NCBI GenBank assembly: GCA_009927815.1
Contig: RFMI01000093.1
Span: forward strand, 678-64,677
Direction: 5' to 3'
Source of the DNA: Betaproteobacteria bacterium
GTDB taxonomy: Bacteria; Pseudomonadota; Gammaproteobacteria; Burkholderiales; UBA3065
DNA: 64,000 nucleotides
The translations under genes were made by a program, and so were the position numbers. The number at the start of each line of letters is the position of its first letter. The stretch's first letter is position 1. The notes under the pieces are model-generated. The model worked only from the letters and a program-made list of their open reading frames with translations. It was not told where the DNA came from and did not search any database. Below, piece by piece: positions 36,699-58,394 of this stretch.

Positions 36699-37459
36699 GC
36701 GACGACACGCTGCCGCCCAAGCAGCGTCTGCTTCTGCCCAAACCGTACACGCCGGCGGCCGATGGCCACCGGGCGGTGCGCAGCTTCGTGTTGCGTCAGG
36801 GCCGCGTCTCCAACGCCCAGGCGCGCGCGGTCGAGACCCTGTTGCCGCGCTGGGGGATACCGTTTTCGCCGGAGCCGCTCGATTACGCAGCGGTATTCGG
36901 TCGCGTGGCGCCAGTGGTGCTGGAGATCGGCTTTGGCATGGGCGAGACCACGGCTGCCATCGCCCGCACGATGCCGGAGCGTGATTTCATCGCGATCGAA
37001 GTGCACACACCGGGGGTCGGTAATTTGCTCAAGTTGATCGACACCCACTTCATTCGCAATCTGCGCGTCATTCAGCACGACGCCGTGGAAGTGCTCGACG
37101 CGATGATTCCCGACGCCAGTCTGGCGGGCGTGCACGTGTTCTTCCCCGACCCGTGGCCGAAGAAGCGCCACCACAAGCGGCGTTTGCTGCAGGCTCCGCT
37201 GGTCGCGACACTCGCACGCAAATTGGTAGCTGGCGGCTATTTGCACGCTGCGACGGATGTCGAGGATTACGCGGCGCAGATGTTGGCGGTGTTCTCGGCG
37301 ACGCCGGGTTTAGTCAATACGGCTGCGGGACTGTCATCCGGCGAACATCTCGTGACCGGCTATGCCGAGCGGCCGGCCTACCGGCCGCAGACCAAGTTCG
37401 AGGCGCGCGGGCTCAAGCTCGGGCATGGCGTGTGGGACGTGGTGTTCCGGCGGGACTGA
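36695..37459 (+). CDS. trmB: tRNA (guanine46-N7)-methyltransferase
   Basis: Contains 'VLEIGFGMG' and '[15 protein letters not shown]'. The GTG start overlaps the thiG stop (GTGA). Confidence 0.85.
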
Positions 37460-37480
37460 GCCTTACAGCCGTACGGCGAC

Positions 37481-38044
37481 TCAATCCAGCGCGGCGTACC
37501 GCACGGCGCTGACCTCCAAGCGCCGGTCGCCGCCCGGCGTGCGCAGAGTCACGCTGTCGCCCTCGCGTGCTTTGAGCAGGGCGCGGGCCATGGGTGACAC
37601 CCAGCTGATGCGACCGCGGCCGACGTCAGCCTCATCGATGCCGACGATGCTGACGGTCTGCTCCTCGCCCGAATCGATATCGAAGATGTCTACAGTGGCG
37701 CCGAAGAACACTTGGTCAGTGGCGTCGCGGGTGGCCGGGTCGACCACTTCAGCGTTGTCGAGGCGCTTACCGAGAAAGCGCAGTCGGCGGTCGATCTCGC
37801 GCAGGCGTTTTTTGCCGTAAAGATAATCACCGTTTTCAGAGCGGTCGCCGTTGCTGGCTGCCCAAGCCACGGTCTCCACCAGTTTGGGCCGCTCGACTTT
37901 CCACAGTTGGTCGAACTCGGCTTGCAGCTGAGCGTGACCGGCCGGTGTCATGTAGTTCTTACTGCCCGCGGGCACCGGATTCGCGTCAACGAATTCCTCG
38001 TCGTCGTCCGGCGGTGTGTCCTCCTTGAAAAACGCTTTGCTCAA
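37481..38044 (-). CDS. greB: transcription elongation factor GreB
   Basis: Has Gre coiled-coil and C-terminal domains: 'NYMTP.G...L..E...L', 'AA..GDRSENGDY.Y.K', 'ISW.SP.A.AL..A..GD'. Confidence 0.8.
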   Translation of the reverse strand: MSKAFFKEDTPPDDDEEFVDANPVPAGSKNYMTPAGHAQLQAEFDQLWKVERPKLVETVAWAASNGDRSENGDYLYGKKRLREIDRRLRFLGKRLDNAEVVDPATRDATDQVFFGATVDIFDIDSGEEQTVSIVGIDEADVGRGRISWVSPMARALLKAREGDSVTLRTPGGDRRLEVSAVRYAALD

Positions 38045-38061
38045 GGGGCTGCCCGCAGGCC

Positions 38062-38910
38062 TCAGATGCCGACTTTCGGCAGGCTCAAGGTTGAGGAAAA
38101 GGTCAAGTCCTTGGAGTCGACAACCTTGGCGGTGAGCTCGCTGCCACCCGCCTTCGGCATGAAGTAAAAGCGGAAATTGGGATTCTCGCTGATCGAGAAG
38201 TCGACATCGGCGCTCAGAATCACCTTGCCGCCATACGCCACTTCAACGTGGCGTACGTATTGCGGTGGGACGAACAAGCGCGTCACCTGGTCCATCTGCA
38301 TGCCGGAGTTGTTGGGGTGCGAGACCATCATCTGCGCCAGGGTCGGCTTACCAGTCTCGACCTCACCTTCAAGCTTGAACTTGATCTTGCCCAGCCGCGC
38401 CAGGGCGGCCTCGTTGTCCTTGCCCGCTGGTGCCGAGCAACCGCCGGCCGCGCGCACATACTTGCGCGCCATGTGCAATTGGCCATCGCTGGTTTCGGCG
38501 ATCACTCGCACCCACGTGTACTCCTCGAGGCGGATGCGCGTCTCGACATCGGCGCGGCCGGATTCGGGGGTCAGCTCAAAGCTGGCGGCGACCGGGGTCG
38601 GGTTCTTGTCGACCACCAGCCACAGTTTGCGGATGTACCGTCCACCCGACTGGTCGATCTTGGCTTTGAGGCCGATCGGTACCACCGAGGCGTCCTCGGC
38701 GCGGAACGGCGCGTCGAGGTCCACCACATCGCCCACGTTGTCGGCAATCGGGCGGTTAGCGAACAGGTACTGGCGCAGGCCCGCCCACTGTTCGGTGTCG
38801 GGGGAGGGCTCGTCGGCAGCGATGGCGAGGGACGTGCCAAGCATCAGGCTGACGATGCCAACAAGCACGGCGCGGAGCAGGGAACGCGGGGATGTCATGG
38901 AAACCTCCAA
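38062..38910 (-). CDS. secreted SoxY-SoxZ fusion-like carrier protein (quinoprotein-dehydrogenase-associated type)
   Basis: Has a Sec signal '...SLAIAADEP'. The SoxY-like half ends in 'AAGGCSAP', which holds the only Cys of the protein (codon 38437-38439). The SoxZ-like half reads 'MVSHPNNSGMQMD...'. Confidence 0.65.
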   Translation of the reverse strand: MEVSMTSPRSLLRAVLVGIVSLMLGTSLAIAADEPSPDTEQWAGLRQYLFANRPIADNVGDVVDLDAPFRAEDASVVPIGLKAKIDQSGGRYIRKLWLVVDKNPTPVAASFELTPESGRADVETRIRLEEYTWVRVIAETSDGQLHMARKYVRAAGGCSAPAGKDNEAALARLGKIKFKLEGEVETGKPTLAQMMVSHPNNSGMQMDQVTRLFVPPQYVRHVEVAYGGKVILSADVDFSISENPNFRFYFMPKAGGSELTAKVVDSKDLTFSSTLSLPKVGI

Positions 38911-39005
38911 GGTCTGTTGCGTTGTCGGCGTAAGCGTGCCGAAACGCCGTAGTTAGTTTTCAGACAACGCGAACCTTACAAGGTTTTGTGGCTGTTGCGA
39001 TGCAG

Positions 39006-40010
39006 TCAGTCTTCCCACTCCAGTTCGGCGTAGGCGGCGGTGACATTGCGGCGGTGGTACAGCTCCGTAAGCTGCCAGCCGGCGGGCGCAGTCAGCGTGT
39101 CGACGGCACGCGCCAAGGCGGTGCCAATGCGCAAGCTGGCGCGCACCCGGTCACGCAGGTCGAGCAGATAGGCGTGTTCGCGGTCCCAAGCGGCTGCAAC
39201 TGCCGCGGCGCCGCTGGCGACGCCGCCATGACCCGGCACCACCCGGGTGGCGGATAGCGCCCGCAGGGTCGGGATCTGCGCCAGCCAGCCGGTCAGGCTG
39301 CCATCCAGCACCGGAATGTGGTCGACAAACAGCAAATCGCCTGCGAACAGCGTGCCACTGGTCTCGTCGGATACGGTCAGGTCGTTGTCGGTGTGGGCGG
39401 TGGGCCAGCTGCGTACGGTCAGGTCGCGATTGCCCAGGTTGATTTGCACGGTCTGCGCCCCCACCAGCGAGGTCGGCGCGACGAACACCGGTGCACGGTC
39501 GGCGCCAAGCTGGCGCAAGGCCAAGGCCGTGTACGTCGACTGACGGGCGGCCAAGGCTGCTGGCAAGCGCTGGCTGGCGACGAACTCTGGCGCGGGCTTC
39601 AGCGAGGCCAGCGCGGCGTTGCCGAGAATGTGGTCGGGGTGAACATGTGTGCTGATTACCGCACACACTGGCAATGGGCTTTGGCTACGAATAGCGGCGA
39701 GCAGGGCTTCGCCGGTCGCGGTGCTGCCGCCACTGTCGATCACGGCGATGCAGCGTTCGCCGACCACGAAACCCCAGTTGGAGGTGTCGCCATCGTTGTC
39801 GCGGGTGGCCTCCGCGATCTGGCCCGTGTGCACGAACACGCCCGGCGCGACTTCATTCACCGGTGCGGGGTCCGCCGCCCGCGTTGATCCGCTCGCGCCG
39901 GTCAGCGCGAGCGTCAGGACCAGAGCTGGCATGCGCAGCCATCCGCCGACCCGCCGGATGTCCGCCGGACGGGCCCGCGAAACCGCAGCGATGCAGCGAG
40001 GATTGCTCAT
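39006..40010 (-). CDS. secreted metallo-beta-lactamase-fold zinc hydrolase (quinoprotein-relay-associated type)
   Basis: Contains 'STHVHPDH' (HxHxDH), 'HTDNDL' and 'VVPGHG', with a signal-like 'MPALVLTLALTGASG'. A shorter start at 39932 is possible. Confidence 0.7.
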   Translation of the reverse strand: MSNPRCIAAVSRARPADIRRVGGWLRMPALVLTLALTGASGSTRAADPAPVNEVAPGVFVHTGQIAEATRDNDGDTSNWGFVVGERCIAVIDSGGSTATGEALLAAIRSQSPLPVCAVISTHVHPDHILGNAALASLKPAPEFVASQRLPAALAARQSTYTALALRQLGADRAPVFVAPTSLVGAQTVQINLGNRDLTVRSWPTAHTDNDLTVSDETSGTLFAGDLLFVDHIPVLDGSLTGWLAQIPTLRALSATRVVPGHGGVASGAAAVAAAWDREHAYLLDLRDRVRASLRIGTALARAVDTLTAPAGWQLTELYHRRNVTAAYAELEWED

Positions 40011-40092
40011 AGAACGAGTCTACCGCCGGGCGCCTGGCAGGCGCGACTTTGTTACACTCGATCCATCAGTCAACGTTGTGAAGGCCGCTGCC

Positions 40093-41418
40093 ATGACCTC
40101 TGCCGCTCAGTCTCCGCACCGCATCGTCGTTGTCGGTGGAGGTGCCGGTGGCCTTGAGTTGGCCACTCGGCTGGGCGACACGCTGGGGCGAAAGGGTGTG
40201 GCCGAGATCACGCTCGTCGACCGCAGCCGTACGCATTTATGGAAGCCGCTGCTGCACGAGGTCGCCGCAGGCAGCATGGACATCGACGATCACGAGTTGG
40301 AGTACCTGGCGCAGGCGCGCTGGCACCACTTCAAGTACCGACTCGGCGCTCTGGCCGGCATCGACCGGCAGAAGAAGTTGGTCAAGCTGGCGCCAGTGTT
40401 CGACGACGAGGGCGAGGTCATCATCGAGGCGCGTACGGTGCCGTACGACACCCTGGTGGTTGCCATCGGTTCGGTGTCCAACGACTTCGGCACGCCGGGT
40501 GTGGCCGAGTACTGCATCTCGCTGGACACCCAAGCCGACGCCGAGCGCTTTCATAAGCGGCTGATCAACAACTGCATGCGCGCGCAAGCCCAGCGCGGCC
40601 CCTTGCAAGCGGGGCAGCTCAGTGTGGCGATCGTGGGTGCCGGCGCCACGGGCGTCGAGCTGGCGGCAGAACTCCACCGCACCGTGCGCGAGCTGGCGGC
40701 GTTCGGCCTCGACAAGATCGATCCGGCACGCGACATCCAAATCACCATCATCGAGGCGGCGCCCCGCATCCTGATGCAGTTACCGGACCGGCTGGCATCT
40801 TCGGCGATGGACCTGCTGCGCGGACTCAATGTGCAGGTGCTGACCAACGAGAAAGTCACTGCGGTCACTGCCGAGGGGGTGAAGACCGCCAGCGGTAGGT
40901 TTGTGCCGGCGCGTCAGGTGGTGTGGGCGGCTGGCATCAAGGGCTCCCCCATTCTCGCTGGCCTCGACGGCCTCGAGGTGACGCGCAATCATCTGCTGGT
41001 GGTGCGTTCGACGCTGCAGACCAGTCGTGATGACGACATCTTCGCCATCGGCGATTGCGCCGCCTGCCCCTGGCCGGAGAAGGACAGCACTGTGCCGCCG
41101 CGCGCTCAGGCCGCGCATCAGCAAGCCAGCACATTGCTCAAGACGCTTAAGCGCCGCCTCCAGGGGCGTCCGCCGCTCGACTACCGCTATCAGGACTTCG
41201 GTTCGCTGGTGAGCTTGGGCGAATACAGCACGGTTGGCTCATTGATGGGCGGCCTGCACAAAGGCACGCTGATGCTCGAGGGCTTCATTGCCGGGCTGAT
41301 GTACAAATCGCTCTATCAGATGCACTTGGTGGCTCTTCACGGCTGGGTCAAGGTGGGGCTCGATACGCTCGCGCGCACCATCACCCGGCGGACTGAGCCG
41401 CACATCAAGCTGCACTGA
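40093..41418 (+). CDS. ndh: type II NADH:quinone oxidoreductase (NDH-2)
   Basis: Contains 'IVVVGGGAGGLELATRLG', 'HLWKPLLHEVA' and the second dinucleotide motif 'IVGAGATGVELA'. I used the internal ATG 40093. Confidence 0.9.
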   Translation: MTSAAQSPHRIVVVGGGAGGLELATRLGDTLGRKGVAEITLVDRSRTHLWKPLLHEVAAGSMDIDDHELEYLAQARWHHFKYRLGALAGIDRQKKLVKLAPVFDDEGEVIIEARTVPYDTLVVAIGSVSNDFGTPGVAEYCISLDTQADAERFHKRLINNCMRAQAQRGPLQAGQLSVAIVGAGATGVELAAELHRTVRELAAFGLDKIDPARDIQITIIEAAPRILMQLPDRLASSAMDLLRGLNVQVLTNEKVTAVTAEGVKTASGRFVPARQVVWAAGIKGSPILAGLDGLEVTRNHLLVVRSTLQTSRDDDIFAIGDCAACPWPEKDSTVPPRAQAAHQQASTLLKTLKRRLQGRPPLDYRYQDFGSLVSLGEYSTVGSLMGGLHKGTLMLEGFIAGLMYKSLYQMHLVALHGWVKVGLDTLARTITRRTEPHIKLH

Positions 41419-46900: not shown

Positions 46901-47017
46901 ATCGAGGGGCCGATGGCGAGCATCATTGTCGGGGGCTTGGTGACCTCAACCCTGCTCAATCTGCTAATCCTGCCGACGGTGCTGCTCCACTTCGGACGCT
47001 TCAATCGTCGTATTTGA
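43901..47017 (+). CDS. RND efflux permease, CusA/CzcA-like family (substrate unknown)
   Basis: A 1038-aa, 12-TM RND protein. The N-terminus reads 'LDVFPEFSPPQVVIQTEAPG..AELVE..V..PIE'. The TM4 proton-relay region reads 'ALGEVVDDAIIDVENIFRRL'. Confidence 0.85.
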   Translation: MLAALVRFSIRNPGAVLALAVATLVYGIYSARVARLDVFPEFSPPQVVIQTEAPGFSAELVETLVSRPIEAVLNGTVGVASLRSQSIPGLSVVTLIFDDDSDVFRNRQLVGEKLGILANRLPSGVAAPNITPLTSSASSTLGIGLTAKDRTLMDVYDLAQFVVRPHLLSASGVADVNVFGGKVRQWQVQFEPDTLIRAGVGVNDLVEAVRRSSGLRPGGTVETRNQRILVTSEGQPASAAELAQAVLSVRNGQVLRLADVATVVEAPAPSISAATINGTPGVFLMVQGQLGANTYATTLAVESRLDQLRPLLQREGLTVHTQLFRPASFIETSIGNVQRDILIGSALVVAVLFLFLFNARTALVSATAIPLSLLASIIVLVEQGVSLNIMVLGGLVIALGEVVDDAIIDVENIFRRLRENRAAGGARPDWQVVLDASLEVRSSVIYATFIVVVVFFPLLTLSGVAGRLFEPLGLAYIYALLASLAVALTVTPALCYLLLTHGVPLKSEDPPVIAWLRRGYITLLRGIETSARPVVLTTLAVVLLGLAALPLFRIEFVPELREGHYIVHMTALPGTSEAESLRIGRKVTDAIGSVPGVQSVTQWVGRAQNGADTFGMHYSEIEVEIGPLPAEEQARVLDGIREHLTTIPGKPGVAPFPGVSFGVNTFLAERIEETVSGYAAEFVVELFGNDLDLLDRDAKAVAQTLSGIAGARDITIQSPPGTPQFTFRLDAARLAERGLQTLEMLELIRTVYGGIEVGQVLEQGRTIPLVVIAASDERLALERAGQLRFTAPDGSLFALKDVAEVRQTNGRSKILHSGGKRVQTVTCNIQGRDVPGFLREVETALRQQVRLGTGNYLSIGGDAAAAAKARNDLLAHTVLATVGVLLLLYLALGSGRNLLITLLNLPFALIGGVAAVVVSGGWLSIGSLVGFVTLFGITLRNTIMLVSHYQHLVEVDGLPWNAQTALLGASERLPSILMTAIVTALGLMPLVVGSGEPGREIEGPMASIIVGGLVTSTLLNLLILPTVLLHFGRFNRRI

Positions 47018-47372
47018 TATAGCGATGGCGGGGGTCGTCGGGTGTGCCTTCGAGGATGCCCTCGCGTGCTGGCTGCCAGCCAACCACTGTCTCGATCTTG
47101 TGCGCGAGCGCGAAATCGAGCTCGGTGATGCCGTTCGCTGAGTGGGTCTGCAGCTTGACGATGACGAAGGCGTAGGATGCGGCGAGGTCGGGATGGTGCC
47201 AGGCGGCCTCGGCCAAGTGGCCGACTGTGTTGATCACCATGAGCGTCGATTTCCAGCCCTGGGTGCGGAAGCGGCGGCGGATCCAGCCGTCCTCCAGTCG
47301 CCAGTGCGGCAGTTCCAGCGCCAGGCGGCGTTCGACCTCGACAGGGTCTAGAGGCGAGTGGGTGTGTTGCAT
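47001..47372 (-). CDS. pterin-4-alpha-carbinolamine dehydratase (PCD/DCoH) family protein
   Basis: Contains 'EAAWHHPDL....FV.V.L.THS..GIT..D' plus a C-terminal tail of about 20 aa. Its 3' end overlaps the RND gene's 3' end by 17 nt. Confidence 0.75.
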   Translation of the reverse strand: MQHTHSPLDPVEVERRLALELPHWRLEDGWIRRRFRTQGWKSTLMVINTVGHLAEAAWHHPDLAASYAFVIVKLQTHSANGITELDFALAHKIETVVGWQPAREGILEGTPDDPRHRYIKYDD

Positions 47373-47675: not shown

Positions 47676-49481
47676 ATGGCAGTTAAGAACCTGTGGCCCG
47701 TAGTGGCCCTGGCTGTTGCAGCACCGTCGGCCGCTCTGGCCAACGCTGACCTGGCCAAGCTGATGGCTGATTCGAAGAACTGGGCCGCTCCGGCCGGTAA
47801 CTTCTCGAACCATCGTCACACCAAGTTGACCCAGATCAACAAGAGCAACGTTAACAAGCTGCAAGTGGCTTGGACGTTCTCGACCGGCGTCCTGCGCGGC
47901 CACGAAGGCGGCCCGCTGGTCATCGGCGACACCCTGTACGTTCACTCGGCTTTCCCGAACAAGGTTTTCGCCATCAACCTGGCTGACCAAACCATCAAGT
48001 GGAAGTACGAGCCGAAGCAAGACCCGAGCGTGATCCCGGTCATGTGCTGTGACACCGTTAACCGTGGCCTGGCCTACGGCGACGGCAAGATCCTGCTGCA
48101 ACAAGCTGACACCACCCTCGTTGCTCTCGACGCCAAGTCGGGCAAGCCGGTGTGGTCGGTTAAGAACGGCGACCCGAAGGTCGGCCAAACCAACACCAAC
48201 GCCCCCCACGTCTTCAAGGACAAGGTCTTCACCGGTATCTCCGGTGGTGAATTCGGCGTTCGCGGTTGGGTTGCTGCCTACAACCTGAAGGACGGCAAGC
48301 TGGCATGGAAGGGTTACTCGATGGGTCCGGACAGCGACATGCTGATGGATCCGAACACCACCATGACCTTCACCGACGGCAAGATGGCTCCGGTCGGCAA
48401 GGACAGCTCGCTGAAGACCTGGCAGGGCGATCAGTGGAAGATCGGCGGCGGCACCACCTGGGGCTGGTACTCGTACGATCCGGAACTGAACGCAATGTTC
48501 TACGGCAACGGCAACCCGTCGACCTGGAACCCGAAGCAACGCCCGGGCGACAACAAGTGGTCGATGAGCCTGTGGTCGCGTGACGTTGACAGCGGTAAGG
48601 TCAACTGGGTCTACCAAATGACCCCGCACGACGAGTGGGACTTTGACGGCATCAACGAAGTGCCGCTGTTCGAAGGCAAGGACAAGAACGGCAAAGAGCG
48701 CAAGATGCTGGCTCACTTCGACCGTAACGGCTTCGGCTACACCCTGGATCGTAAGACCGGCGAACTGCTGGTTGCTGAGAAGTTCGATCCGGCCGTGAAC
48801 TGGGCCACCCACGTCGACATGAAGACTGGCCGTCCGCAAGTCGTGGCCAAGTACTCGACCCACCAGAACGGTGAAGACGTCAACTCGAAGGGCATCTGCC
48901 CGGCAGCTCTGGGTACCAAGGATCAACAGCCGGCGGCTTACGATCCGGTCTCGGGTCTGTTCCTGGTCCCGACCAACCACGTGTGTATGGACTACGAGCC
49001 GTTCCGTGTCGAGTACACCGCTGGTCAACCGTACGTTGGCGCAACCCTGGCCATGTTCCCGGCTCCGAACAGCCACGGCGGCATGGGCAACTTCATCGGT
49101 TGGGATCCGATCAAGGGCAAGATCGTTTGGTCGATCCCCGAGAAGTTCTCGGTTTGGTCGGGCGCTCTGACCACCGCTTCGGGTCTGGCTTTCTACGGCA
49201 CGCTGGACGCCCGTCTGAAGGCTGTTGACATCAAGGCTGGTAAGGTTGTTTGGACCTCGCCGAAGCTCCCGTCGGGCGTGATCGGTAACGTTCACAGCTG
49301 GGAATTCCAAGGCAAGCAGTACGTCGGCGTTCTGACCGGCATCGGTGGCTGGGCCGGTATCGGCATGGCTGCTGGCCTGGAGAAGGACAGCGACGGTCTG
49401 GGCGCTGTGGGTGGCTACAAGGAACTCGCCAAGTACGGCGATCTGGGTGGCACCCTGATGGTCTTCGCTCTGGCGAACTAA
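47676..49481 (+). CDS. xoxF: PQQ-dependent methanol/alcohol dehydrogenase, XoxF (lanthanide) type
   Basis: Has a Sec signal '[12 protein letters not shown]', '[14 protein letters not shown]', the vicinal disulfide 'MCCD', 'WDFDG' (D322-x-D324) and 'HFDRNGF.YTLDR'. A strong GGAGG ribosome-binding site precedes the start. 601 aa. Confidence 0.9.
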
Positions 49482-49524
49482 TTCGGACCTGCGGCAGTCC
49501 TACTGCCGCAACCGAGTCAGGGAA

Positions 49525-49557
49525 ACTGGCACTCTTTCGGGAGTGCCAGTTTTTTTT
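49525..49557 (+). terminator. strong intrinsic terminator after xoxF
   Basis: A 10-bp perfect stem (ACTGGCACTC pairing with GAGTGCCAGT), a 6-nt loop, then T8. Confidence 0.8.
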
Positions 49558-49577
49558 GTGTCCGCAGGAGGAGCATT

Positions 49578-50471
49578 TTGAAAACCATCGCATCAACCCT
49601 CGCTGGCGCCGTCTTTACGGCTGCTGCCCTTGTTGCACCCCAGGCACAAGCCGCAACCGCCCAAGAAAAAGGCATCCTGCGCGTCTGCGCCGACCCCAAC
49701 AGCATGCCGTTCTCCAATCAAGCCGGTGAAGGCCTGGAAAACCGCATCGCCGAGATGATGGCCAAAGATTTCGGCTGGAAGGTCGAGTTTTTCTTTTTCC
49801 CTCAACGCATGGCGTTCTTCCGCAACAGCCTGAAGGCCAAAGCGGCCGATGGTGAAGAGGGGTACAAGTGCGATCTCGCCACAAGCTCGGCACCTGAGGC
49901 CGAGGGTGCTGTGGCGACCAAAACCTATTACACGTCGACCTGGACTATGGTGATGCCGGCCGGCAAAGGTCTGGACGCAATCCGTCAGCCGGATGATCTG
50001 CTGAAACTGCCTAAGGACCAGCTCGCCAAGCTGCGCTTTGGCGTGTTCCCGGCATCTCCCGGGGCTGACTGGGTGCTGCGCAACGGGTTCGATAAGCAGA
50101 TGGTGCCGTTCCAGCAAATGCTGGGCGATCCGAATTCGTATCCCGGCCAGATGGTGGACGTGTCTTTGGTGAAGGGCGACATCGATGTGGCCTTTATCTG
50201 GGGCCCCATCGGCAGTTATCACGCGCGCCAGAGTAAGGCCGTCAAGCTGCGGGTGGTGCCGATGGTGCCGGACGCTGAGACCGTGACCGACTTCTCTATC
50301 GCCATGGCCGTTCGCTACCGCGAGCCGGAATGGAAAGCCAAGGTCGAGGACTTCCTCACCCGCCGCAAGGCCGACATCGACAAAGTCATGGCCGACTATG
50401 GCGTGCCGCTGGTGCAGACCGACGGCTCGGTGTTGGTCAACGGCGAGCGCTTCGACCGCCCGCGTAAGTGA
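49578..50471 (+). CDS. xoxJ: quinoprotein-dehydrogenase-associated periplasmic binding protein (MxaJ/XoxJ-like)
   Basis: Has a signal peptide ending in 'AQA', 'LRVCADPNSMPFSN' and a type-2 PBP fold. It uses a TTG start and lies directly downstream of xoxF. Confidence 0.7.
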   Translation: MKTIASTLAGAVFTAAALVAPQAQAATAQEKGILRVCADPNSMPFSNQAGEGLENRIAEMMAKDFGWKVEFFFFPQRMAFFRNSLKAKAADGEEGYKCDLATSSAPEAEGAVATKTYYTSTWTMVMPAGKGLDAIRQPDDLLKLPKDQLAKLRFGVFPASPGADWVLRNGFDKQMVPFQQMLGDPNSYPGQMVDVSLVKGDIDVAFIWGPIGSYHARQSKAVKLRVVPMVPDAETVTDFSIAMAVRYREPEWKAKVEDFLTRRKADIDKVMADYGVPLVQTDGSVLVNGERFDRPRK

Positions 50472-51442
50472 GCGTAAACGCAGTTCGCCATGCCCTGACC
50501 CGCCTGCACCTGCTGGCGGGTTTTTTGTGTCTAGCGGACGGGGTATGGGCCCAGCCGCTGGCAGTCGTCACCGAGCAGGGCGCGCATGCAGTGGCCATGG
50601 TGGACCTCTCGGCTCTGTCAGTGCGGCGTCAGGTGGCTGTGGGCGAGGCCCCGGCCGGTGTCGCGGTGGATGTGCAACGCCGCCGAGCGTACGTTAGCAA
50701 CGCCGAGGGTCGCAGTGTCAGCATGATCGACGTCGACCACGACAGCGTACTGCTGACCCGCGCGCTGGGTGCGGGTCCGGTGGGAATTGCCGTCGATCCG
50801 GCGCGAGGCGTCGTGGCGGTCGCCGATTGGTACCGCAATAGCCTGTGGTTGCTGAGCGCCGATGACTTGTCGGTGCAAGCCGAGGTGCCCGTCGGTCGTG
50901 CGCCCGCCGGGGTTGAATTCAGCGACGACGGTCGGCGCGTGTACGTCGCCAATCGTGACGACAATAGCGTCTCGGTGGTGGACATCGAGGCGAGGCGCGA
51001 GTCTGAGCGCTGGCCGGTGGGCGATCATCCATTCGGCCTGCGCCTGAGTCCCGATGGCCGCCAATTGTGGGTTACCAACGTGCAGAGCCATGACGTCACG
51101 GTTTTGGATACGGCGCCCATAGCCGCCGCAGGGCGTACCCTGGCCACCCTGCCGGTCGGGCACCGCCCGTATTGCGTCGCTTTTGCGGCTGGTCGTGCCT
51201 TTGTCACCAATCAGTACGGCGACAGTTTGAGCGTGATCGATGCGACATCACGGCATACCGTGGCGACCATTCCGACCGGCGCCTATCCTGAGGGCATCGA
51301 CGCGCTGGGAGACCGCGTGTGGGTGGTGTCGTGGATGGACGAGGTGCTGATTGCCTTGGACGCACGGACCTTAAAAGTGACCGCCCGCGTACCTTTAGGC
51401 AGTAACCCCCGCGGTTTTGGCCGGTTTGTTTTGGCAGAATAG
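50468..51442 (+). CDS. YVTN-family beta-propeller repeat protein (PQQ-catabolism-associated type)
   Basis: Contains repeated units such as 'P.GVA.....R.YV.N...N.VSVID'. The GTG start overlaps the xoxJ stop (GTGA). Confidence 0.7.
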   Translation: MSVNAVRHALTRLHLLAGFLCLADGVWAQPLAVVTEQGAHAVAMVDLSALSVRRQVAVGEAPAGVAVDVQRRRAYVSNAEGRSVSMIDVDHDSVLLTRALGAGPVGIAVDPARGVVAVADWYRNSLWLLSADDLSVQAEVPVGRAPAGVEFSDDGRRVYVANRDDNSVSVVDIEARRESERWPVGDHPFGLRLSPDGRQLWVTNVQSHDVTVLDTAPIAAAGRTLATLPVGHRPYCVAFAAGRAFVTNQYGDSLSVIDATSRHTVATIPTGAYPEGIDALGDRVWVVSWMDEVLIALDARTLKVTARVPLGSNPRGFGRFVLAE

Positions 51443-51478
51443 AGTCAGTCTTGTTTCATCAACCTGTGGAGATTTGCC

Positions 51479-51985
51479 ATGCAGTTGTCCCGCCTGATTG
51501 CCCTGGCCACCTTGTTGTTGCCTGGCCTCGCCTTTGCGCACGGTCCGACCCGTCAAAAAGCTGTTGAAACCATCGAGATCGCTGCGCCACCGGCTCAGGT
51601 GTGGGCGATGGTCAAAGATTGGGCTGGAATGGCCAAATGGCACCCGGCAGTCGCCGAGGTTGGCGGCAACGGCAACGAGCGCATCTTGAATCTGAAGAGC
51701 GGCGGCAAGGTGGTCGAGGAGTTGGAGGCCGTAGACGACGCCAGCATGTTGCTGCGGTACCGCATGAAAGATCCGGGCCCGGTGCCGGTCAACAATTACA
51801 GCGCCGCCATGACCGTCGTGGCCCAAGGTGGCGGTTCGATGGTGCAGTGGAAGGGCGCTTTCTATCGGGCTTTTCTGAATAACGACCCGCCGCCGGACCA
51901 AAACGACGAAGCAGCAGTAAAAGCCATCACGGGAATCTACAAATCAGGTCTTGAGGGTCTGAAGAAGGCTGTTGAGGGCAAGTAA
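51479..51985 (+). CDS. mxaD: secreted SRPBCC-fold protein, MxaD-like
   Basis: Has the signal 'LLLPGLAFAHG' and an SRPBCC-type sequence ('VWAMVKDWAGMAKWHPAV'). The assignment also relies on its position in a methanol-oxidation cluster. Confidence 0.55.
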   Translation: MQLSRLIALATLLLPGLAFAHGPTRQKAVETIEIAAPPAQVWAMVKDWAGMAKWHPAVAEVGGNGNERILNLKSGGKVVEELEAVDDASMLLRYRMKDPGPVPVNNYSAAMTVVAQGGGSMVQWKGAFYRAFLNNDPPPDQNDEAAVKAITGIYKSGLEGLKKAVEGK

Positions 51986-51988
51986 ACG

Positions 51989-53065
51989 TCAGACTGGGCG
52001 GCGGCGCAAACGCTGCTGCCGCCATTGACGTAGCGGCCAGCCGAGCCAGTAGCGAGTCCAGTCCAAGGGGCTGAGGTTGCTGCGCCAGTACGCCATGATC
52101 AGACATATCAGTGCCAATACGCCCAGCGCCGGGCTGATCGGGGTTTTAACCCAACGCCACGTCGACGCCGGCCCGCCGATCAGCTGATCGGCCAGCCCTG
52201 AGCCGGTACCCAAGCGCGTGTATCCGAACTCGAGCTCTTCGGCGAGCAGCTTGAGATAGCTCTCGCGCAGTTGCGACAGGTGCTCCCGGCCAGGCTGCGC
52301 CTGCAGGCGCAAGGTGACGTCGCTCGACACTTTGCCGGCATCCGCGTCGGCCATCTTCTCGCCACCACCCGTGGTCGAGCGTCCGCTGGTGTAGGGATCC
52401 GATTGCGCGACCTCTTGCGCCTGCCAGACGCCGATTTGCCGGCCACGCTCGTCGAGCTTGGGGATCGGGCTGAGGGTCGGCTCGCCGACGCCCACCAACC
52501 AGCCTTTGACCGCGCCGACCGTACCGCGGAACTGCGGCCGGTAGCGCGCTGACACGGGTGGTGCTTCCTGCCCGTCGGTGAGAAACACCAGTTGCGTGCT
52601 GCTAGACGATCCATCGATGAAGCCGATCGCGTTGTAGATGCCCTTGGCGATTTCGCTGTCGGTCGCCCAGATGGTGTCGGGCGAAATGCCCGAGGCGCTT
52701 TTCTCGAGTTCGTTGTAGTACTCGCAGACCTCGACCGGCTGGAACATGACCATGGTCTGGTAGCCGGCGAATACGCCCAGGCCGACTTCGGTGCCGCAGG
52801 GCAGGGCGCGCACGGTCTCAGCAATGCGGCGTTGGATGGCTGCTGCACGGCTGGTGAGCTCACCGTCCACCCGCATGTCGCGCACATACATGCTGCGCGA
52901 GATGTCGACCACCATCAGAAAGCTATGCACCGGTTGCAGCACCGGAATTTCCGGTTGCACCGCGGCCAGGGCCATTAGCACGCCGGCGGTATTGAGCATG
53001 GCGCGGCGGGTCGGCGTGAAGCCACGGCCGAGCCTGGGCAGGTGCAATCGGGGAATCCGCATCAC
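51989..53065 (-). CDS. mxaL: VWA-domain protein, MxaL-like
   Basis: Contains the VWA MIDAS start 'LMVVDISRSM', 'VFLTDGQE' and a C-terminal TM helix. It is the last gene of the MoxR cluster, with an ATGA overlap onto the upstream gene. Confidence 0.6.
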   Translation of the reverse strand: MMRIPRLHLPRLGRGFTPTRRAMLNTAGVLMALAAVQPEIPVLQPVHSFLMVVDISRSMYVRDMRVDGELTSRAAAIQRRIAETVRALPCGTEVGLGVFAGYQTMVMFQPVEVCEYYNELEKSASGISPDTIWATDSEIAKGIYNAIGFIDGSSSSTQLVFLTDGQEAPPVSARYRPQFRGTVGAVKGWLVGVGEPTLSPIPKLDERGRQIGVWQAQEVAQSDPYTSGRSTTGGGEKMADADAGKVSSDVTLRLQAQPGREHLSQLRESYLKLLAEELEFGYTRLGTGSGLADQLIGGPASTWRWVKTPISPALGVLALICLIMAYWRSNLSPLDWTRYWLGWPLRQWRQQRLRRRPV

Positions 53066-53616
53066 GGCAGGCCCTGGGCTTCCACTTGCATGGTGGTCAC
53101 CGAGCGCTCGGCTTTGGGCGGCGGCGGCAGCACCTCGGTCTCTTCCAGTTCGGCTTCCGGGTTGCGGCGGAGGGCACGCTCGAGGTTGTAGCGCGCGTCC
53201 ATCTGCAGAGGCTCGCTGCGCAGCACCGATCGGTACGAGGCTTTCGCCAGCTCGAAATTGGGGATAGCCGCCGCGGTCTCGCCGGCATCTGCGGCTTCGA
53301 TGGCGTCGCGCAGGTAGAGGTTGCCGCTGTTAAACCGCGCCGCCAAGCGCAGCGTCGGCGAGCTGCTGTCGTCGTTTTCGACGCGGTTGTAGAGCGCCAG
53401 GGCTTCGGTGATCTTGCCGGTGCCAGCGGTCTTCACCGCGGCGGCAAACAGCTCTTCGGGGTGCGGCGACGTCGGTTGTGCCAGACCGCCAGCGATGCGG
53501 GCATTCACGCTGTCGGCTTCGCGCAAGGCCAGCCCGTCGCGCGTGGCAAGAGAGGCCAGCGTGACCAGGGCGACGACGCTGGTCAGCGTGATGAGGGTGC
53601 GGCGGATCTTGACCAT
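53062..53616 (-). CDS. mxaK: TPR-like membrane-anchored protein, MxaK-like
   Basis: Has an N-terminal TM helix 'LITLTSVVALVTLASLA' and a helical-repeat C-terminal part. It sits between the two VWA genes. Confidence 0.45.
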   Translation of the reverse strand: MVKIRRTLITLTSVVALVTLASLATRDGLALREADSVNARIAGGLAQPTSPHPEELFAAAVKTAGTGKITEALALYNRVENDDSSSPTLRLAARFNSGNLYLRDAIEAADAGETAAAIPNFELAKASYRSVLRSEPLQMDARYNLERALRRNPEAELEETEVLPPPPKAERSVTTMQVEAQGLP

Positions 53617-54604: not shown

Positions 54605-54612
54605 CGGTGCCC

Positions 54613-56360: not shown

Positions 56361-56373
56361 GGGTCAGAGCCGG

Positions 56374-57408: not shown

Positions 57409-57584
57409 TAGTAAGGTCAAGACCGAGTTGAAAGCTAGCACAAATCGATTCGGCTTTTATCCCGCCGAAAGGCATAGGCCGCCGCACGCCGGAACTCTCG
57501 GCGATGCACGCATTCTGAGTAGGGCTTGGCGCACAATCGCGCCGCGGCGTCGGTGACGACGTGACCATTAGAGGAACTCGACGT

Positions 57585-58394
57585 ATGAACACTCACAACC
57601 GCGGCTTGCTGGCCGCAAGATTCCTAGTTGTAGCCGCAGGCACGGCGCTGGCGCTCTCAGCAGTTGCCGCGGATGCACCGGTCGCTGCTGACAAGCCGGC
57701 GGCGTCCAATAAGGATATCGGCCCGGTTAAGCCGACCAAGCCGCAGTACGACACGGGCCTTAAGCCCAAGGAGGAAATCACCGCCGCCGAGCAGATGGTC
57801 TTTCTCGATGAGCATCTCGCCAATATCAAGGCCTCTGCCACGCTGACCTACGCGTTTACCAAGCAAGGCTCGATGGAAAAAGGGTTCTCGGACAGCGTTG
57901 AGGAGGCAGTCACCCTCAATGGCAAGAGCCGCACGGTTAAGGCCAAATTCCTGAGTGGGCTCAATAGCAAGGAGTTCGCGCCGATCGACGAGGCTTTGAG
58001 CAACCCGGTCATCCTGCATTTTCTCGAGCGCGATCTGGCCGAGATGCAACGTCTGACCAGCGGTCAGCCCAACTATTTCCGCAAACGCATCCGCTTGGCA
58101 TTGGCCGAGGGCCCGGAGGCCAAGCCGGTCAAGTTTACGTTCAATGGCAAGCCAGTCGACGCCAAGGCGGTTTCAGTTGAGCCTTACATCACCGACCCGA
58201 TGGTCAACGACCCGTCACGCGCGGCCTACAAGCGCTACCGCGGCAAGCGTTACACCTTTGTGTTCTCGGACGCCGTGCCAGGCAAGGTGGCCGAGATGCG
58301 CTTCACCATCCCCGACATGGGCTTGGCTGGTGAGTCTGCGTTCGAGAAGCCGCTGCTCGAAGAGGTGTTGACCCTGCAGGGCCCCAAGAAGTAA
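57585..58394 (+). CDS. secreted hypothetical protein
   Basis: The ATG follows a GAGGA ribosome-binding site. The Sec signal reads 'FLVVAAGTALALSAVAADAP'. I recognise no motif. It is divergent from mxaR. Confidence 0.5.
   Translation: MNTHNRGLLAARFLVVAAGTALALSAVAADAPVAADKPAASNKDIGPVKPTKPQYDTGLKPKEEITAAEQMVFLDEHLANIKASATLTYAFTKQGSMEKGFSDSVEEAVTLNGKSRTVKAKFLSGLNSKEFAPIDEALSNPVILHFLERDLAEMQRLTSGQPNYFRKRIRLALAEGPEAKPVKFTFNGKPVDAKAVSVEPYITDPMVNDPSRAAYKRYRGKRYTFVFSDAVPGKVAEMRFTIPDMGLAGESAFEKPLLEEVLTLQGPKK

What the first reader, a model, noticed from the sequence alone, without database searches (positions are those of the whole stretch)
38062..40010. Secreted single-cysteine SoxYZ-fusion carrier paired with a secreted MBL hydrolase: a poorly understood module near the quinoprotein island
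The 282-aa protein has a Sec signal. Its SoxY-like half ends in AAGGCSAP, matching the GGC carrier-cysteine motif of SoxY but sitting internally at the fusion joint, followed by a SoxZ-like half. This Cys (codon 38437-38439) is the only cysteine in the protein. The next gene on the same strand encodes a signal-bearing HxHxDH zinc hydrolase. No other sox genes (soxA/X/B/CD) are in the window. What is nearby is the XoxF cluster, 7.7 kb away. To my knowledge such SoxYZ-like and MBL pairs have been grouped with PQQ dehydrogenases only by comparative genomics, with no biochemical function assigned. A covalent Cys-bound intermediate, for example a thiohemiacetal or persulfide handling of an aldehyde or sulfur product, is conceivable but is pure inference. 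This is my best candidate for undescribed chemistry here.
Basis: partly seen in the sequence, partly recalled or inferred. Interest (0 to 1): 0.6.

Follow-up and report, generated by a model that had tools for sequence, protein, structure and literature searches.

The report
XoxF-associated SoxYZ-like carrier plus hydrolase
This is a real two-gene unit for a secreted cysteine-carrier protein and a secreted zinc hydrolase; both families are already named in databases as companions of PQQ alcohol dehydrogenases, and nobody has yet shown what they do.

Summary
Window 38062-38898(-) encodes a 278-aa secreted SoxY-SoxZ fusion. Its only cysteine (Cys154, codon 38437-38439) lies in an invariant GGCSAPxGKD loop. 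Window 39006-40010(-), transcribed first, encodes a secreted MBL-fold hydrolase with a complete two-metal ligand set. [quoted passage not shown] The exact carrier protein already carries that name in NCBI. Recent papers discuss the P. putida homologues PP_2677/PP_2678 and report no known function. The finding is therefore already known as a named but uncharacterised module.

New here:
- The conserved core is the ordered pair hydrolase then carrier.
- A lanthanide-type XoxF lies within 10 kb in 31 of 42 close relatives with full flanks, and in about 40% of a broader sample.
- Some bona fide family members instead sit beside sulfide-dehydrogenase-like flavoproteins, or beside a SoxA-like cytochrome plus rhodanese.
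- Hydrolase copies downstream of the carrier are usually degenerate.

Best reading, by inference: a Sox-derived periplasmic cycle in which the cysteine arm carries a sulfur-linked adduct and the hydrolase removes it, serving XoxF. An aldehyde (thiohemiacetal) relay remains possible.

The parts
39006..40010 (-). Gene for the secreted MBL-fold two-metal hydrolase (quinoprotein relay system zinc metallohydrolase 2). This is the maximal ORF; the probable start is the ATG at 39932 (308 aa). It is the first gene of the pair.
   Evidence: TIGR04559 scores 335.3 bits against a cut-off of 280, and Pfam Lactamase_B gives E=3e-23. A 308-aa gene call is found on metagenome contigs. The AF2 model has pLDDT 93.
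39630..39647 (-). HVHPDH metal-binding motif of the hydrolase (H96-H101 in 308-aa numbering).
   Evidence: Read directly from the sequence. It is invariant in 30 homologues, together with D66, H180, D199 and H235. The ligand set is intact in all 49 upstream copies in related loci.
38062..38898 (-). Gene for the secreted fused SoxY-SoxZ-like carrier (278 aa). The maximal ORF extends to the TTG at 38910.
   Evidence: TIGR04557 scores 269.5 bits against a cut-off of 140, and Pfam finds SoxY plus SoxZ. GGAGG lies 6 nt before the ATG at 38898. The identical protein P0001 is named in NCBI. The AF2 model has pLDDT 87, and its domains match SoxY and SoxZ.
38818..38898 (-). Sec-type signal peptide of the carrier (residues 1-27, with cleavage predicted after AIA).
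   Evidence: Sequence read. The AF2 model has a helix at residues 4-21, separate from the folded domains. The cleavage site is inferred by eye; no predictor was run.
38437..38766 (-). SoxY-like domain, ending at the carrier cysteine.
   Evidence: Pfam PF13501 covers residues 49-158 of the 282-aa form. phmmer aligns it to 4uwq_B SoxY, ending in GGC.
38416..38445 (-). Arm motif GGCSAPAGKD (residues 152-161). Cys154 is encoded by codon 38437-38439 and is the only cysteine in the protein.
   Evidence: The motif is invariant in alignment A1. GGCSAP is present in 85 of 86 carrier ORFs of related loci. Residues 155-157 are the only stretch of the AF2 model with pLDDT below 50.
38089..38364 (-). SoxZ-like domain.
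   Evidence: Pfam PF08770 covers residues 183-274 of the 282-aa form. Foldseek matches 2oxh_A with TM 0.86 and 1v8h_A with TM 0.81.
47676..49481 (+). Context: the lanthanide-type PQQ methanol dehydrogenase XoxF, the usual genomic partner of the pair. It lies 7.7 kb away, beyond an ndh-2 gene, an RND efflux operon and a pterin-4a dehydratase gene.
   Evidence: TIGR03075 scores 701 bits. The sequence has WDFDG and a vicinal CC. Best PDB matches are 6dam and 6oc5 XoxF. The intervening genes are listed.
49578..51985 (+). Context: XoxF accessory genes. These are a MoxJ_2-type binding protein (49578-50471), a beta-propeller (50468-51442) and an MxaD-like SRPBCC protein (51479-51985). In some genomes they lie directly beside the carrier.
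   Evidence: TIGR03871 scores 235 bits. TIGR03866 scores 179 bits, below its cut-off. Pfam Polyketide_cyc2 gives E=2e-34. They are contiguous with the carrier in L055, L058 and L075.
57561..58394 (+). Context: a secreted protein of unknown family. Its homologues (41-43% identity) lie between MoxJ_2 and the hydrolase gene in 28 related loci.
   Evidence: tblastn of cluster 12 against the window. No Pfam or NCBIfam match was found.

Best explanation
The pair is a periplasmic carrier-and-unloader unit that evolved from the SoxYZ and SoxH(G) parts of the sulfur-oxidation system. In this genome it serves the lanthanide-dependent methanol dehydrogenase XoxF system.

Shown by computation:
- Both proteins carry signal peptides.
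- The carrier reproduces the SoxY and SoxZ folds in a single chain.
- It presents one nearly invariant cysteine, Cys154, in the only flexible loop of the model. That cysteine sits at the position where SoxY carries its sulfur intermediates.
- The upstream gene encodes an MBL-fold enzyme with a complete, invariant two-metal site.
- The order hydrolase then carrier is conserved across the family.

Inferred:
- Cys154 forms a covalent adduct. The hydrolase inserts the arm into its active site and cleaves the adduct off, regenerating the free thiol. This parallels SoxB unloading SoxY.
- My preferred identity for the adduct is a sulfur species, either S-sulfonate/thiosulfonate or sulfane sulfur.
- On that reading the unit keeps XoxF working by scavenging or relaying reactive sulfur that would otherwise attack PQQ or the strained vicinal disulfide of the dehydrogenase.

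I put about 0.55 on the general carrier-plus-hydrolase cycle and about 0.35 on the sulfur identity of the adduct.
For: - Family membership is above the curated cut-offs.
- Cys154 aligns with the SoxY carrier Cys.
- The arm is the only low-confidence stretch of an otherwise confident model, and the domains match the SoxY and SoxZ folds.
- The cysteine is kept in 86 of 86 related ORFs and in about 146 of 148 diverse representatives.
- The two-metal ligand set is invariant in 30 homologues and in all 49 upstream copies.
- The hydrolase gene lies directly upstream on the same strand in 48 of 75 genome loci. In the metagenome sample it is within 400 bp in 34 of 43 loci, with 55 copies upstream against 4 downstream.
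- XoxF-type PQQ dehydrogenase lies within 10 kb in 31 of 42 full-flank genome loci, and 40 of 43 of these enzymes have the lanthanide-type WD[FY]DG motif.

For a sulfur adduct specifically:
- Bona fide TIGR04557 and TIGR04559 members also occur beside other partners, with no PQQ dehydrogenase in reach. In L091 the order is carrier, hydrolase, c-type cytochrome, FCSD-like flavoprotein. In L092 the carrier sits beside an FCSD-like flavoprotein. In L094 the order is SoxA-like cytochrome, hydrolase, TIGR03865 rhodanese, carrier.
- FccB-like genes occur in 3 and rhodanese genes in 5 of 37 longer metagenome loci.
- After chlorothalonil dehalogenase and the uncharacterised protein 8d2z, the nearest solved folds are alkylsulfatases. 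No glyoxalase II appears in the top 50.
- The P. putida cluster also holds a rhodanese-domain protein, and thiosulfate is reported to impair growth of H. denitrificans on methanol (PMC12997753 section 15).
Against: - No experiment on any member shows an adduct or a hydrolase activity.
- RB-TnSeq of the P. putida homologues gave minimal phenotypes on alcohols, although without lanthanides (PMC12997753).
- In H. denitrificans, the pmpAB genes next to the Sox(YZ) fusion and SoxH do not respond to thiosulfate, and the authors assign that gene group to PQQ alcohol catabolism (PMC11582611).
- Many hosts are not sulfur oxidisers.
- The reason a sulfur relay should accompany an alcohol dehydrogenase is pure inference.
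- Fold similarity within the MBL superfamily does not define a substrate.
- The carrier occurs without any nearby hydrolase in some genomes, for example the orphan gene in Methyloversatilis and loci L017, L020, L054 and L081.
- In this window the pair is 7.7 kb from xoxF, so co-regulation is not shown.
Confidence: 0.4

Rival explanations
1. Periplasmic aldehyde relay. Cys154 adds to the formaldehyde made by XoxF, giving S-hydroxymethyl-cysteine, which is itself a primary alcohol. XoxF oxidises this to an S-formyl thioester. The MBL enzyme, acting like glyoxalase II, hydrolyses it to formate and free carrier. This would be a protein-thiol counterpart of the cytoplasmic glutathione pathway (Gfa, FlhA, FghA).
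For: - PQQ alcohol dehydrogenases are the commonest neighbour by far. The association extends to a distant PQQ dehydrogenase only 32% identical to XoxF (L090).
- The MBL superfamily includes thioester hydrolases. The window enzyme has a weak partial match to the glyoxalase II model TIGR03413 (30 bits).
- Genes for gfa, flhA and fghA lie in 10-15 of the 80 genome loci.
- A GFA-domain gene lies directly upstream of the carrier in L090.
Against: - Family members that sit with FCSD-like or SoxA-like plus rhodanese partners, with no PQQ dehydrogenase in reach, are hard to fit.
- The GFA-domain protein of L090 has no signal peptide, so it is probably cytoplasmic.
- No glyoxalase II or thioesterase appears among the top 50 structural neighbours.
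- The PQQ site of methanol dehydrogenases lies at the bottom of a narrow funnel, so entry of a protein loop is doubtful (my own knowledge, not tested).
- RB-TnSeq showed minimal phenotypes on alcohols in P. putida (PMC12997753).
Confidence: 0.2
2. Maturation or maintenance factor for the dehydrogenase. The carrier thiol, with partner proteins, makes or repairs the vicinal Cys-Cys disulfide, or escorts PQQ or the metal into apo-XoxF. The MBL protein acts on something other than a carrier adduct.
For: - The surrounding conserved genes are mostly accessory or activation factors: MoxJ_2, MxaD-like, MoxR/VWA, and MoxZ in L093.
- 41 of 43 neighbouring dehydrogenases carry the vicinal CC.
- Degenerate, probably non-catalytic, MBL paralogues flank the carrier in many loci, which suggests protein-binding roles.
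- The 2026 review favours enzyme maturation or redox control (PMC12997753 section 15).
Against: - Ca-dependent PQQ dehydrogenases with the same disulfide work in species that lack these genes, such as P. aeruginosa (PMC12997753).
- Thiol-disulfide exchange needs no metallohydrolase, yet the intact two-metal site is invariant.
- The pair also occurs with no PQQ dehydrogenase nearby.
Confidence: 0.15
3. The pair is a detached piece of a canonical Sox thiosulfate-oxidation pathway encoded elsewhere in the genome, and its position near xoxF is incidental.
For: The domains are homologous to SoxY, SoxZ and SoxH. The rest of the genome cannot be seen from this window.
Against: - Scores are below the cut-offs of the true SoxY and SoxZ models and above the cut-off of the quinoprotein-associated model.
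- The arm is internal (GGCSAP), not the C-terminal GGCGG.
- No soxAXBCD genes lie in the window or in the 80 genome loci as recurrent neighbours.
- XoxF co-localisation in 31 of 42 loci is far above my rough chance estimate of about 1-3%.
Confidence: 0.03
4. The MBL gene is an ordinary beta-lactamase or an unrelated hydrolase that happens to lie next to the carrier gene.
For: There are weak matches to subclass B1 lactamase models (41.6 bits against a cut-off of 200) and B1/B2 lactamases among the structural neighbours.
Against: - All lactamase scores are far below their cut-offs.
- The adjacency and gene order are conserved in most of about 160 loci across Proteobacteria.
- The enzyme has family-specific invariant residues, including the C-terminal HRRNxT...ELEW.
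Confidence: 0.02

Closest known systems
[quoted passage not shown]
   Same: - The window protein scores 269.5 bits against a cut-off of 140.
- It is a fused SoxY-SoxZ protein with a signal peptide and a single Cys in the GGCSAP motif.
- It neighbours a PQQ dehydrogenase and a SoxH-like MBL.
- The identical protein already bears this name in NCBI.
   Different: Nothing essential differs. Here the pair is separated from xoxF by 7.7 kb (ndh-2, RND efflux and pterin-4a dehydratase genes) instead of lying inside the xox/ped operon. In P. putida the MBL gene follows the carrier, whereas here it precedes it.
NCBIfam TIGR04559 'quinoprotein relay system zinc metallohydrolase 2' / SoxH of Paracoccus pantotrophus
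   Same: The window enzyme scores 335.3 bits against a cut-off of 280. It is secreted, MBL-fold, with an HxHxDH motif and a full two-metal ligand set. As with SoxH, no substrate is known.
   Different: SoxH proper lies in the sox cluster (soxEFGH) and is dispensable for thiosulfate oxidation (my own knowledge, Rother et al. 2001, not re-read here). This subfamily is defined by its PQQ-dehydrogenase context. The window lacks the second, usually degenerate, MBL paralogue seen in many related loci.
Canonical SoxYZ carrier with SoxB thiosulfohydrolase (PDB 2ox5, 4uwq)
   Same: Both domains have the same folds, and the carrier Cys is at the homologous position on a flexible Gly-Gly-Cys arm. The logic is the same: a metal hydrolase regenerates the carrier thiol.
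   Different: - The two subunits are fused.
- The arm is an internal loop followed by the invariant SAPxGKD, not a free C-terminal GGCGG.
- The partner hydrolase is MBL-fold with a predicted di-zinc site, not the dimanganese SoxB.
- No SoxAX or SoxCD is present.
- Scores are below the true SoxY and SoxZ cut-offs.
Glutathione-dependent formaldehyde oxidation (Gfa, FlhA, FghA) and glyoxalase II
   Same: This is a conceptual parallel only: thiol capture of an aldehyde, oxidation to a thioester, then hydrolysis. Glyoxalase II is an MBL-fold thioesterase.
   Different: That pathway is cytoplasmic and uses a small-molecule thiol. The window enzyme matches the glyoxalase II model only weakly and partially (30 bits against 200.8), and no glyoxalase II is among its top 50 structural neighbours.
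MBL-fold alkylsulfatases (SdsA1, Pisa1, YjcS) and chlorothalonil dehalogenase Chd
   Same: These are the closest solved folds apart from the uncharacterised protein 8d2z, with TM 0.68-0.78. They are two-zinc or one-zinc hydrolases that act on non-lactam substrates.
   Different: Sequence identity is only 15-23%. The alkylsulfatases have extra dimerisation and SCP-2 domains that are absent here. The similarity says nothing firm about substrate.

Membership tests
[quoted passage not shown] | Score at or above the curated cut-off of the equivalog model (140 bits), over the full length | tested here: met
   269.5 bits, E=1.7e-80, covering model positions 1-225 of 226.
[quoted passage not shown] | Single-chain fusion of a SoxY-like and a SoxZ-like domain, with a secretion signal | tested here: met
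   Pfam finds SoxY plus SoxZ. The AF2 domains match 2ox5_Y and 2oxh_A. The signal peptide was read from the sequence.
[quoted passage not shown] | Conserved carrier cysteine in a GGC arm at the domain junction | tested here: met
   GGCSAP is at residues 152-157. The motif is invariant in alignment A1, present in 85 of 86 related ORFs, and the Cys is kept in about 146 of 148 representatives.
[quoted passage not shown] | Genomic association with a PQQ-dependent dehydrogenase | tested here: met
   XoxF lies 7.7 kb away in the window. A PQQ dehydrogenase lies within 10 kb in 31 of 42 full-flank genome loci and in 16 of 37 longer metagenome loci. The association is not universal across the family.
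TIGR04559 quinoprotein relay system zinc metallohydrolase 2 | Score at or above the curated cut-off (280 bits) | tested here: met
   335.3 bits, E=2.9e-100. The sister model TIGR04558 gives only 160.9 bits against a cut-off of 300.
TIGR04559 quinoprotein relay system zinc metallohydrolase 2 | MBL fold with a complete metal-binding ligand set (D, HxHxDH, H, D, H) | tested here: met
   D66, H96, H98, D100, H101, H180, D199 and H235 are invariant in alignment A2. The AF2 model has pLDDT 93 and an MBL fold.
TIGR04559 quinoprotein relay system zinc metallohydrolase 2 | Zinc content and hydrolase activity | not testable with these tools
   The name is by homology only. I found no biochemical report in the library.
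Canonical SoxY / SoxZ (TIGR04488, TIGR04490) | Score above the curated cut-offs; C-terminal GGCGG arm; separate subunits | tested here: not met
   SoxY scores 78.6 against 125 and SoxZ 59.9 against 76. The arm is internal GGCSAP, and the protein is a single fused chain.
Canonical Sox pathway | soxAX, soxB and soxCD in the neighbourhood | tested here: not met
   None were found in the window, and none appear as recurrent neighbours in the 80 genome loci. The rest of the genome is not visible.
Acquired metallo-beta-lactamases (subclass B1/B2/B3) | Score above the NCBIfam lactamase cut-offs | tested here: not met
   The best match is bla_subclass_B1 at 41.6 bits against a cut-off of 200.
Glyoxalase II (TIGR03413) | Score above the cut-off over the full length | tested here: not met
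   30.3 bits against 200.8, covering only residues 79-140. It is absent from the top 50 Foldseek PDB matches.

The most novel reading that the evidence does not exclude
The MBL-then-carrier pair is a free-standing, minimal periplasmic covalent-carrier system, a 'mini-Sox'. Its protein thiol carries a reactive intermediate, and different dehydrogenases (XoxF, FCSD-like flavoproteins, SoxA-like cytochromes) plug into it. In methylotrophs it would carry out chemistry not yet described. One option is oxidation of carrier-bound S-hydroxymethyl-cysteine to formate. Another is hydrolytic removal of S-sulfo or persulfide adducts that would otherwise inactivate PQQ enzymes. The degenerate MBL paralogue and the small 4-Cys protein would be further uncharacterised components.
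Probability: 0.25. Interest if true: 0.7.

Novelty: already known. Interest (0 to 1): 0.33.

Why it matters
Lanthanide-dependent methanol and ethanol dehydrogenases are central to methylotrophy and to alcohol oxidation in soil bacteria. Several genes that travel with them still have no function. The carrier-and-hydrolase pair is among the most widespread of these: 222 clusters at 50% identity match at E<=1e-30, and it occurs in genetically tractable hosts such as P. putida KT2440 and M. extorquens.

If the cysteine arm does carry an intermediate, this would be only the second known pathway after Sox that runs on a protein-bound periplasmic thiol. It could explain how these bacteria cope with reactive aldehydes or sulfur species outside the cytoplasm.

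This window adds no special experimental handle. The comparative results obtained here narrow the hypotheses and suggest which constructs to build: the ordered core pair, the intact and degenerate hydrolase paralogues, the alternative sulfur-enzyme partners, and two further conserved proteins of unknown family.

Tried and rejected
- Exact-sequence look-up of the 282-aa TTG-start form found nothing. The 278-aa ATG form was found, so the start was revised.
- I searched for shared promoter words between the regions upstream of the hydrolase gene, xoxF and the 57561 gene. The only hit was an 11-mer inside the ndh coding sequence, so there is no evidence of a common operator. The sigma-70 and terminator scan of 37300-40400 gave nothing above shuffles.
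- I looked for the CXXCW rhodanese in the 80 genome loci by motif. All hits were Gfa proteins, so that rhodanese is not part of the XoxF5-type clusters. It does occur in L094 and in some metagenome loci.
- The FCSD link in genome locus L033 was examined and judged incidental: it lies 4-5 kb away on the opposite strand, beside gfa.
- The GFA-domain gene next to the carrier in L090 looked like support for the aldehyde model, but it lacks a signal peptide.
- The look-up of P0154, the Methyloversatilis hydrolase, failed because that exact sequence is not on record. I therefore could not see where the hydrolase sits in a genome whose carrier gene is an orphan.
- A literature search for SoxG/SoxH biochemistry returned only eukaryotic SOX papers. 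Statements about Paracoccus SoxEFGH therefore rest on my memory.
- A persulfide-dioxygenase reading of the hydrolase was considered and not adopted. The full two-metal ligand set is invariant, and no persulfide dioxygenase or glyoxalase II fold appears among the top matches. It is not excluded, however.


Full report
**What is there**

On the minus strand, two ORFs fill the stated interval. The upstream one, 39006-40010, is 334 aa as a maximal ORF. Gene callers on identical metagenome contigs start it at the ATG at 39932, giving 308 aa. It encodes an MBL-fold protein.

After a 107-bp spacer comes the second ORF. Its maximal form starts at the TTG at 38910 (282 aa). The ATG at 38898 is preceded by GGAGG at the right distance. 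The 278-aa product of that start is the one recorded on at least 23 contigs, whereas the 282-aa form is not on record.

The N-terminus MTSPRSLLRAVLVGIVSLMLGTSLAIA|ADE looks like a Sec signal. The hydrolase motif HVHPDH lies at 39630-39647.

**Identity**

[quoted passage not shown] It stays below the cut-offs of true SoxY (78.6 against 125) and true SoxZ (59.9 against 76). The hydrolase scores 335.3 bits on TIGR04559, 'quinoprotein relay system zinc metallohydrolase 2' (cut-off 280), and 160.9 on the sister model TIGR04558 (cut-off 300). All beta-lactamase and glyoxalase II models are far below their cut-offs. Pfam gives SoxY plus SoxZ, and Lactamase_B. The identical carrier protein, P0001, is already named this way in NCBI for a Betaproteobacteria MAG.

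**Structure**

The AlphaFold2 model of the carrier, built on 28 homologues, has mean pLDDT 87 and pTM 0.81. Its only stretch below pLDDT 50 is residues 155-157, directly after Cys154. The two domains superpose on Paracoccus SoxY (2ox5_Y, TM 0.85) and SoxZ (2oxh_A, TM 0.86). phmmer aligns Cys154 with the carrier cysteine that ends Thermus SoxY in the SoxB-SoxYZ complex 4uwq.

The hydrolase model has pLDDT 93. Its nearest solved folds are chlorothalonil dehalogenase (6uxu), an uncharacterised Burkholderia protein (8d2z), then the MBL-fold alkylsulfatases SdsA1, Pisa1 and YjcS, then B1/B2 lactamases. Glyoxalase II and persulfide dioxygenase are not in the top 50.

**Conservation**

In 28 homologues (52-81% identical) the stretch A-[AS]-G-G-C-S-A-P-x-G-K-D is invariant. 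All 86 carrier ORFs in 80 genome loci have GGC, 85 of them as GGCSAP. This includes second paralogous copies that were found by tblastn rather than by the search pattern. Of the 86, 84 have a single cysteine in the mature part.

Among 150 representatives of clusters at 50% identity, all full-length sequences keep the cysteine except two, P0289 and P0351, which have Phe there. The family is large, with 222 such clusters at E<=1e-30.

In the hydrolase, D66, H96, H98, D100, H101, H180, D199 and H235 are invariant in 30 homologues. So are family-specific residues such as TAHTDxD and the C-terminal HRRNxT...ELEW.

**Neighbourhood in the window**

No sox genes were found among the ORFs I scanned. 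The first 27 kb hold housekeeping genes. The 27-49 kb stretch holds ribonucleotide reductase, thiG, trmB and greB, then the pair, then a divergent ndh-2, an RND efflux operon and a pterin-4a dehydratase.

At 47676 begins a PQQ dehydrogenase scoring 701 bits on TIGR03075. It has the lanthanide-type WDFDG motif and a vicinal CC. Its best solved relatives are the XoxF structures 6dam and 6oc5. It is followed by a MoxJ_2-type binding protein, a beta-propeller and an MxaD-like SRPBCC protein. A MoxR/VWA operon follows on the other strand.

No c-type cytochrome gene follows xoxF here, unlike in most related loci.

**Neighbourhood elsewhere: close relatives**

A scan of one genome per species returned 80 loci, with carriers 43-86% identical to the window protein.

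- Of the 42 loci with at least 9 kb on both sides, 31 carry a PQQ dehydrogenase within 10 kb, at a median distance of 3.5 kb. Of 43 such enzymes, 40 have WD[FY]DG and 41 have the vicinal CC.
- Chance expectation is of the order of 1-3%. This is my estimate, based on a few such genes per 4-5 Mb genome and a 20-kb span.
- The hydrolase gene lies directly upstream on the same strand in 48 of 75 loci.
- The commonest order is xoxF, a c-type cytochrome (TIGR03874-like), MoxJ_2, an unknown secreted protein of about 247 aa, a small secreted 4-Cys protein, the hydrolase, the carrier, and a second MBL.
- The window arrangement, with a divergent ndh-2 and RND efflux next to the pair, recurs in L007, L011, L012, L014, L022 and L026.
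- In Methyloversatilis thermotolerans the carrier gene is an orphan beside crp and relA.

**Neighbourhood elsewhere: the wider family**

Six representatives 35-38% identical to the window protein all pass TIGR04557, at 208-234 bits. Their contexts split into two groups.

Three are methanol or PQQ contexts:
- L089: a divergent PQQ dehydrogenase, the 4-Cys protein, the unknown protein, and H4MPT and Fae genes.
- L090: a distant DYD-type PQQ dehydrogenase, a cytochrome, an unknown protein, a GFA-domain protein, then the carrier.
- L093: VWA, MxaD-like and MoxZ genes and an ABC-2 transporter.

Three are sulfur-type contexts with no PQQ dehydrogenase in reach:
- L091: carrier, TIGR04559 hydrolase (408 bits), a small cytochrome c, then an FCSD-like flavoprotein.
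- L092: carrier, then an FCSD-like flavoprotein.
- L094: a SoxA-like cytochrome, TIGR04559 hydrolase (357 bits), a TIGR03865 CXXCW rhodanese (182 bits), then the carrier.

A metagenome scan seeded with these distant members gave 80 more loci.
- An MBL gene lies within 400 bp in 34 of 43 loci with at least 1.1 kb on each side. Across all loci, 55 adjacent copies are upstream on the same strand and 4 are downstream.
- Among the 37 loci with at least 8 kb of total flank, a PQQ dehydrogenase is present in 16, an FccB-like gene in 3 and the rhodanese in 5.

The conserved core is therefore the ordered pair hydrolase then carrier. PQQ dehydrogenase is the commonest partner but not an obligatory one.

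**Literature**

- A 2026 review of the Pseudomonas ped cluster lists PP_2677 (carrier), PP_2678 (hydrolase) and PP_2666 (rhodanese domain) as uncharacterised. It notes minimal RB-TnSeq phenotypes on alcohols, in experiments done without rare earths. It offers two guesses: disulfide or cofactor maintenance of lanthanide enzymes, or protection of PQQ from sulfur nucleophiles (PMC12997753, section 15).
- A 2024 study of lucinid symbionts describes soxYZ fusion clades next to PQQ alcohol dehydrogenase plus soxH, and next to xoxF plus fdh (PMC11237559).
[quoted passage not shown] It reports that the neighbouring pmpAB genes do not respond to thiosulfate (PMC11582611).
- soxH next to xoxF5 in Rhodobacterales has been drawn in gene maps since at least 2018 (PMC5934484).
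- I found no biochemical study.

**How it most likely works**

Shown: localisation signals, folds, the homologous position and flexibility of the cysteine arm, the intact two-metal site, and the conserved gene order and neighbourhoods.

Inferred: the cysteine carries a covalent adduct, and the hydrolase removes it, as SoxB does for SoxY.

I favour a sulfur-linked adduct for four reasons.
- All three domains descend from Sox components.
- Bona fide family members pair with sulfide-dehydrogenase-like flavoproteins, or with a SoxA-like cytochrome plus rhodanese.
- A rhodanese also accompanies the module in Pseudomonas.
- The hydrolase fold is closer to sulfate-ester hydrolases than to thioesterases.

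Why such a unit should accompany XoxF is not known. Protecting PQQ or the strained vicinal disulfide from sulfite, sulfide or thiosulfate is a guess.

It fits the dominant PQQ association. It explains the sulfur-type contexts poorly, and it requires a protein loop to reach a buried PQQ site. A maturation role is the third option.

**Verdict**

It concerns a module that is already curated, named and discussed, so it is not a discovery. Its function is a genuine open question, but this window offers no advantage over tractable model organisms.

The side results may be useful to whoever takes up the biochemistry:
- the ordered core pair;
- intact upstream against degenerate downstream hydrolase paralogues;
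- two further conserved secreted proteins without a family;
- rare Cys-to-Phe carriers;
- sulfur-enzyme partners in part of the family.

Noticed in passing
Related loci L007-L086 and L095-L174 (for example L021:11168-12178, L075:12254-13240, L016:11796-12785); not in the window: MBL paralogues downstream of the carrier gene have degenerate metal ligands in 34 of 36 cases, and so do all 6 paralogues elsewhere in the loci. The commonest pattern is D-H-R-E-F-S-G-H in place of D-H-H-D-H-H-D-H. The three examples tested (the loci named above) score below the cut-offs of both TIGR04558 and TIGR04559. All 49 upstream copies are intact. This looks like a catalytically dead partner protein.
   Followed up: partly
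Related loci, for example L054:9574-9915, L037:8592-8936, L089:2665-3000(-); absent from the window: A small secreted protein of about 90 mature residues with four cysteines (consensus nD.PT..rV.yV..Cm...e..yKCSC.iD.iA...GerG...Rd...k.Cf) lies next to the hydrolase or carrier gene in 55 of 80 genome loci and 21 of 80 metagenome loci. It has no Pfam or NCBIfam match.
   Followed up: partly
window 57561-58394 (+): This is a secreted protein with no Pfam or NCBIfam match. Its homologues (41-43% identical) lie between MoxJ_2 and the hydrolase gene in 28 related loci. It is probably another uncharacterised member of the xox accessory set, displaced here to the far side of the MoxR/VWA operon.
   Followed up: partly
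window 47001-47372 (-): A pterin-4a-carbinolamine dehydratase gene sits divergently beside xoxF here and in at least 12 related loci (for example L016, L020, L021, L029, L040, L047), at 64-75% identity. No reason for the link is apparent.
   Followed up: no
window 47676-51985 (+): The xoxF cluster here has no cytochrome gene (xoxG/c550 type) between xoxF and the MoxJ_2 gene, whereas 40 of the 80 related genome loci carry a cytochrome of about 147 aa, typically between xoxF and MoxJ_2. The electron acceptor of this XoxF must be encoded elsewhere.
   Followed up: partly
window 51989-57441 (-): An operon on the opposite strand, directly after the xoxF cluster, was only weakly typed here. It shows faint AAA-ATPase (MoxR-like) and TPR/BatC-like matches, while DUF58 and MoxR-type ORFs recur in about 8-10 related loci. 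It recalls the mxaRS/ACKL metal-insertion genes of Ca-dependent methanol dehydrogenase.
   Followed up: no
window 40093-41418 (+): A type-2 NADH dehydrogenase gene lies divergently next to the hydrolase gene here, in genome loci L007 and L011, and in 4 metagenome loci (for example L104). The adjacency is recurrent but unexplained.
   Followed up: no
Proteins P0289 and P0351 (cluster representatives, not in the window): Two otherwise full-length family members have Phe in place of the carrier cysteine (GGFSAP and GGFSIAP). They may be non-carrier paralogues.
   Followed up: no
window 9483-11896 (+): The lon protease gene appears as two overlapping ORFs (9483-10718 and 10505-11896), which match the N- and C-terminal parts of endopeptidase La. 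This suggests a frameshift, which could be real or an assembly error.
   Followed up: no
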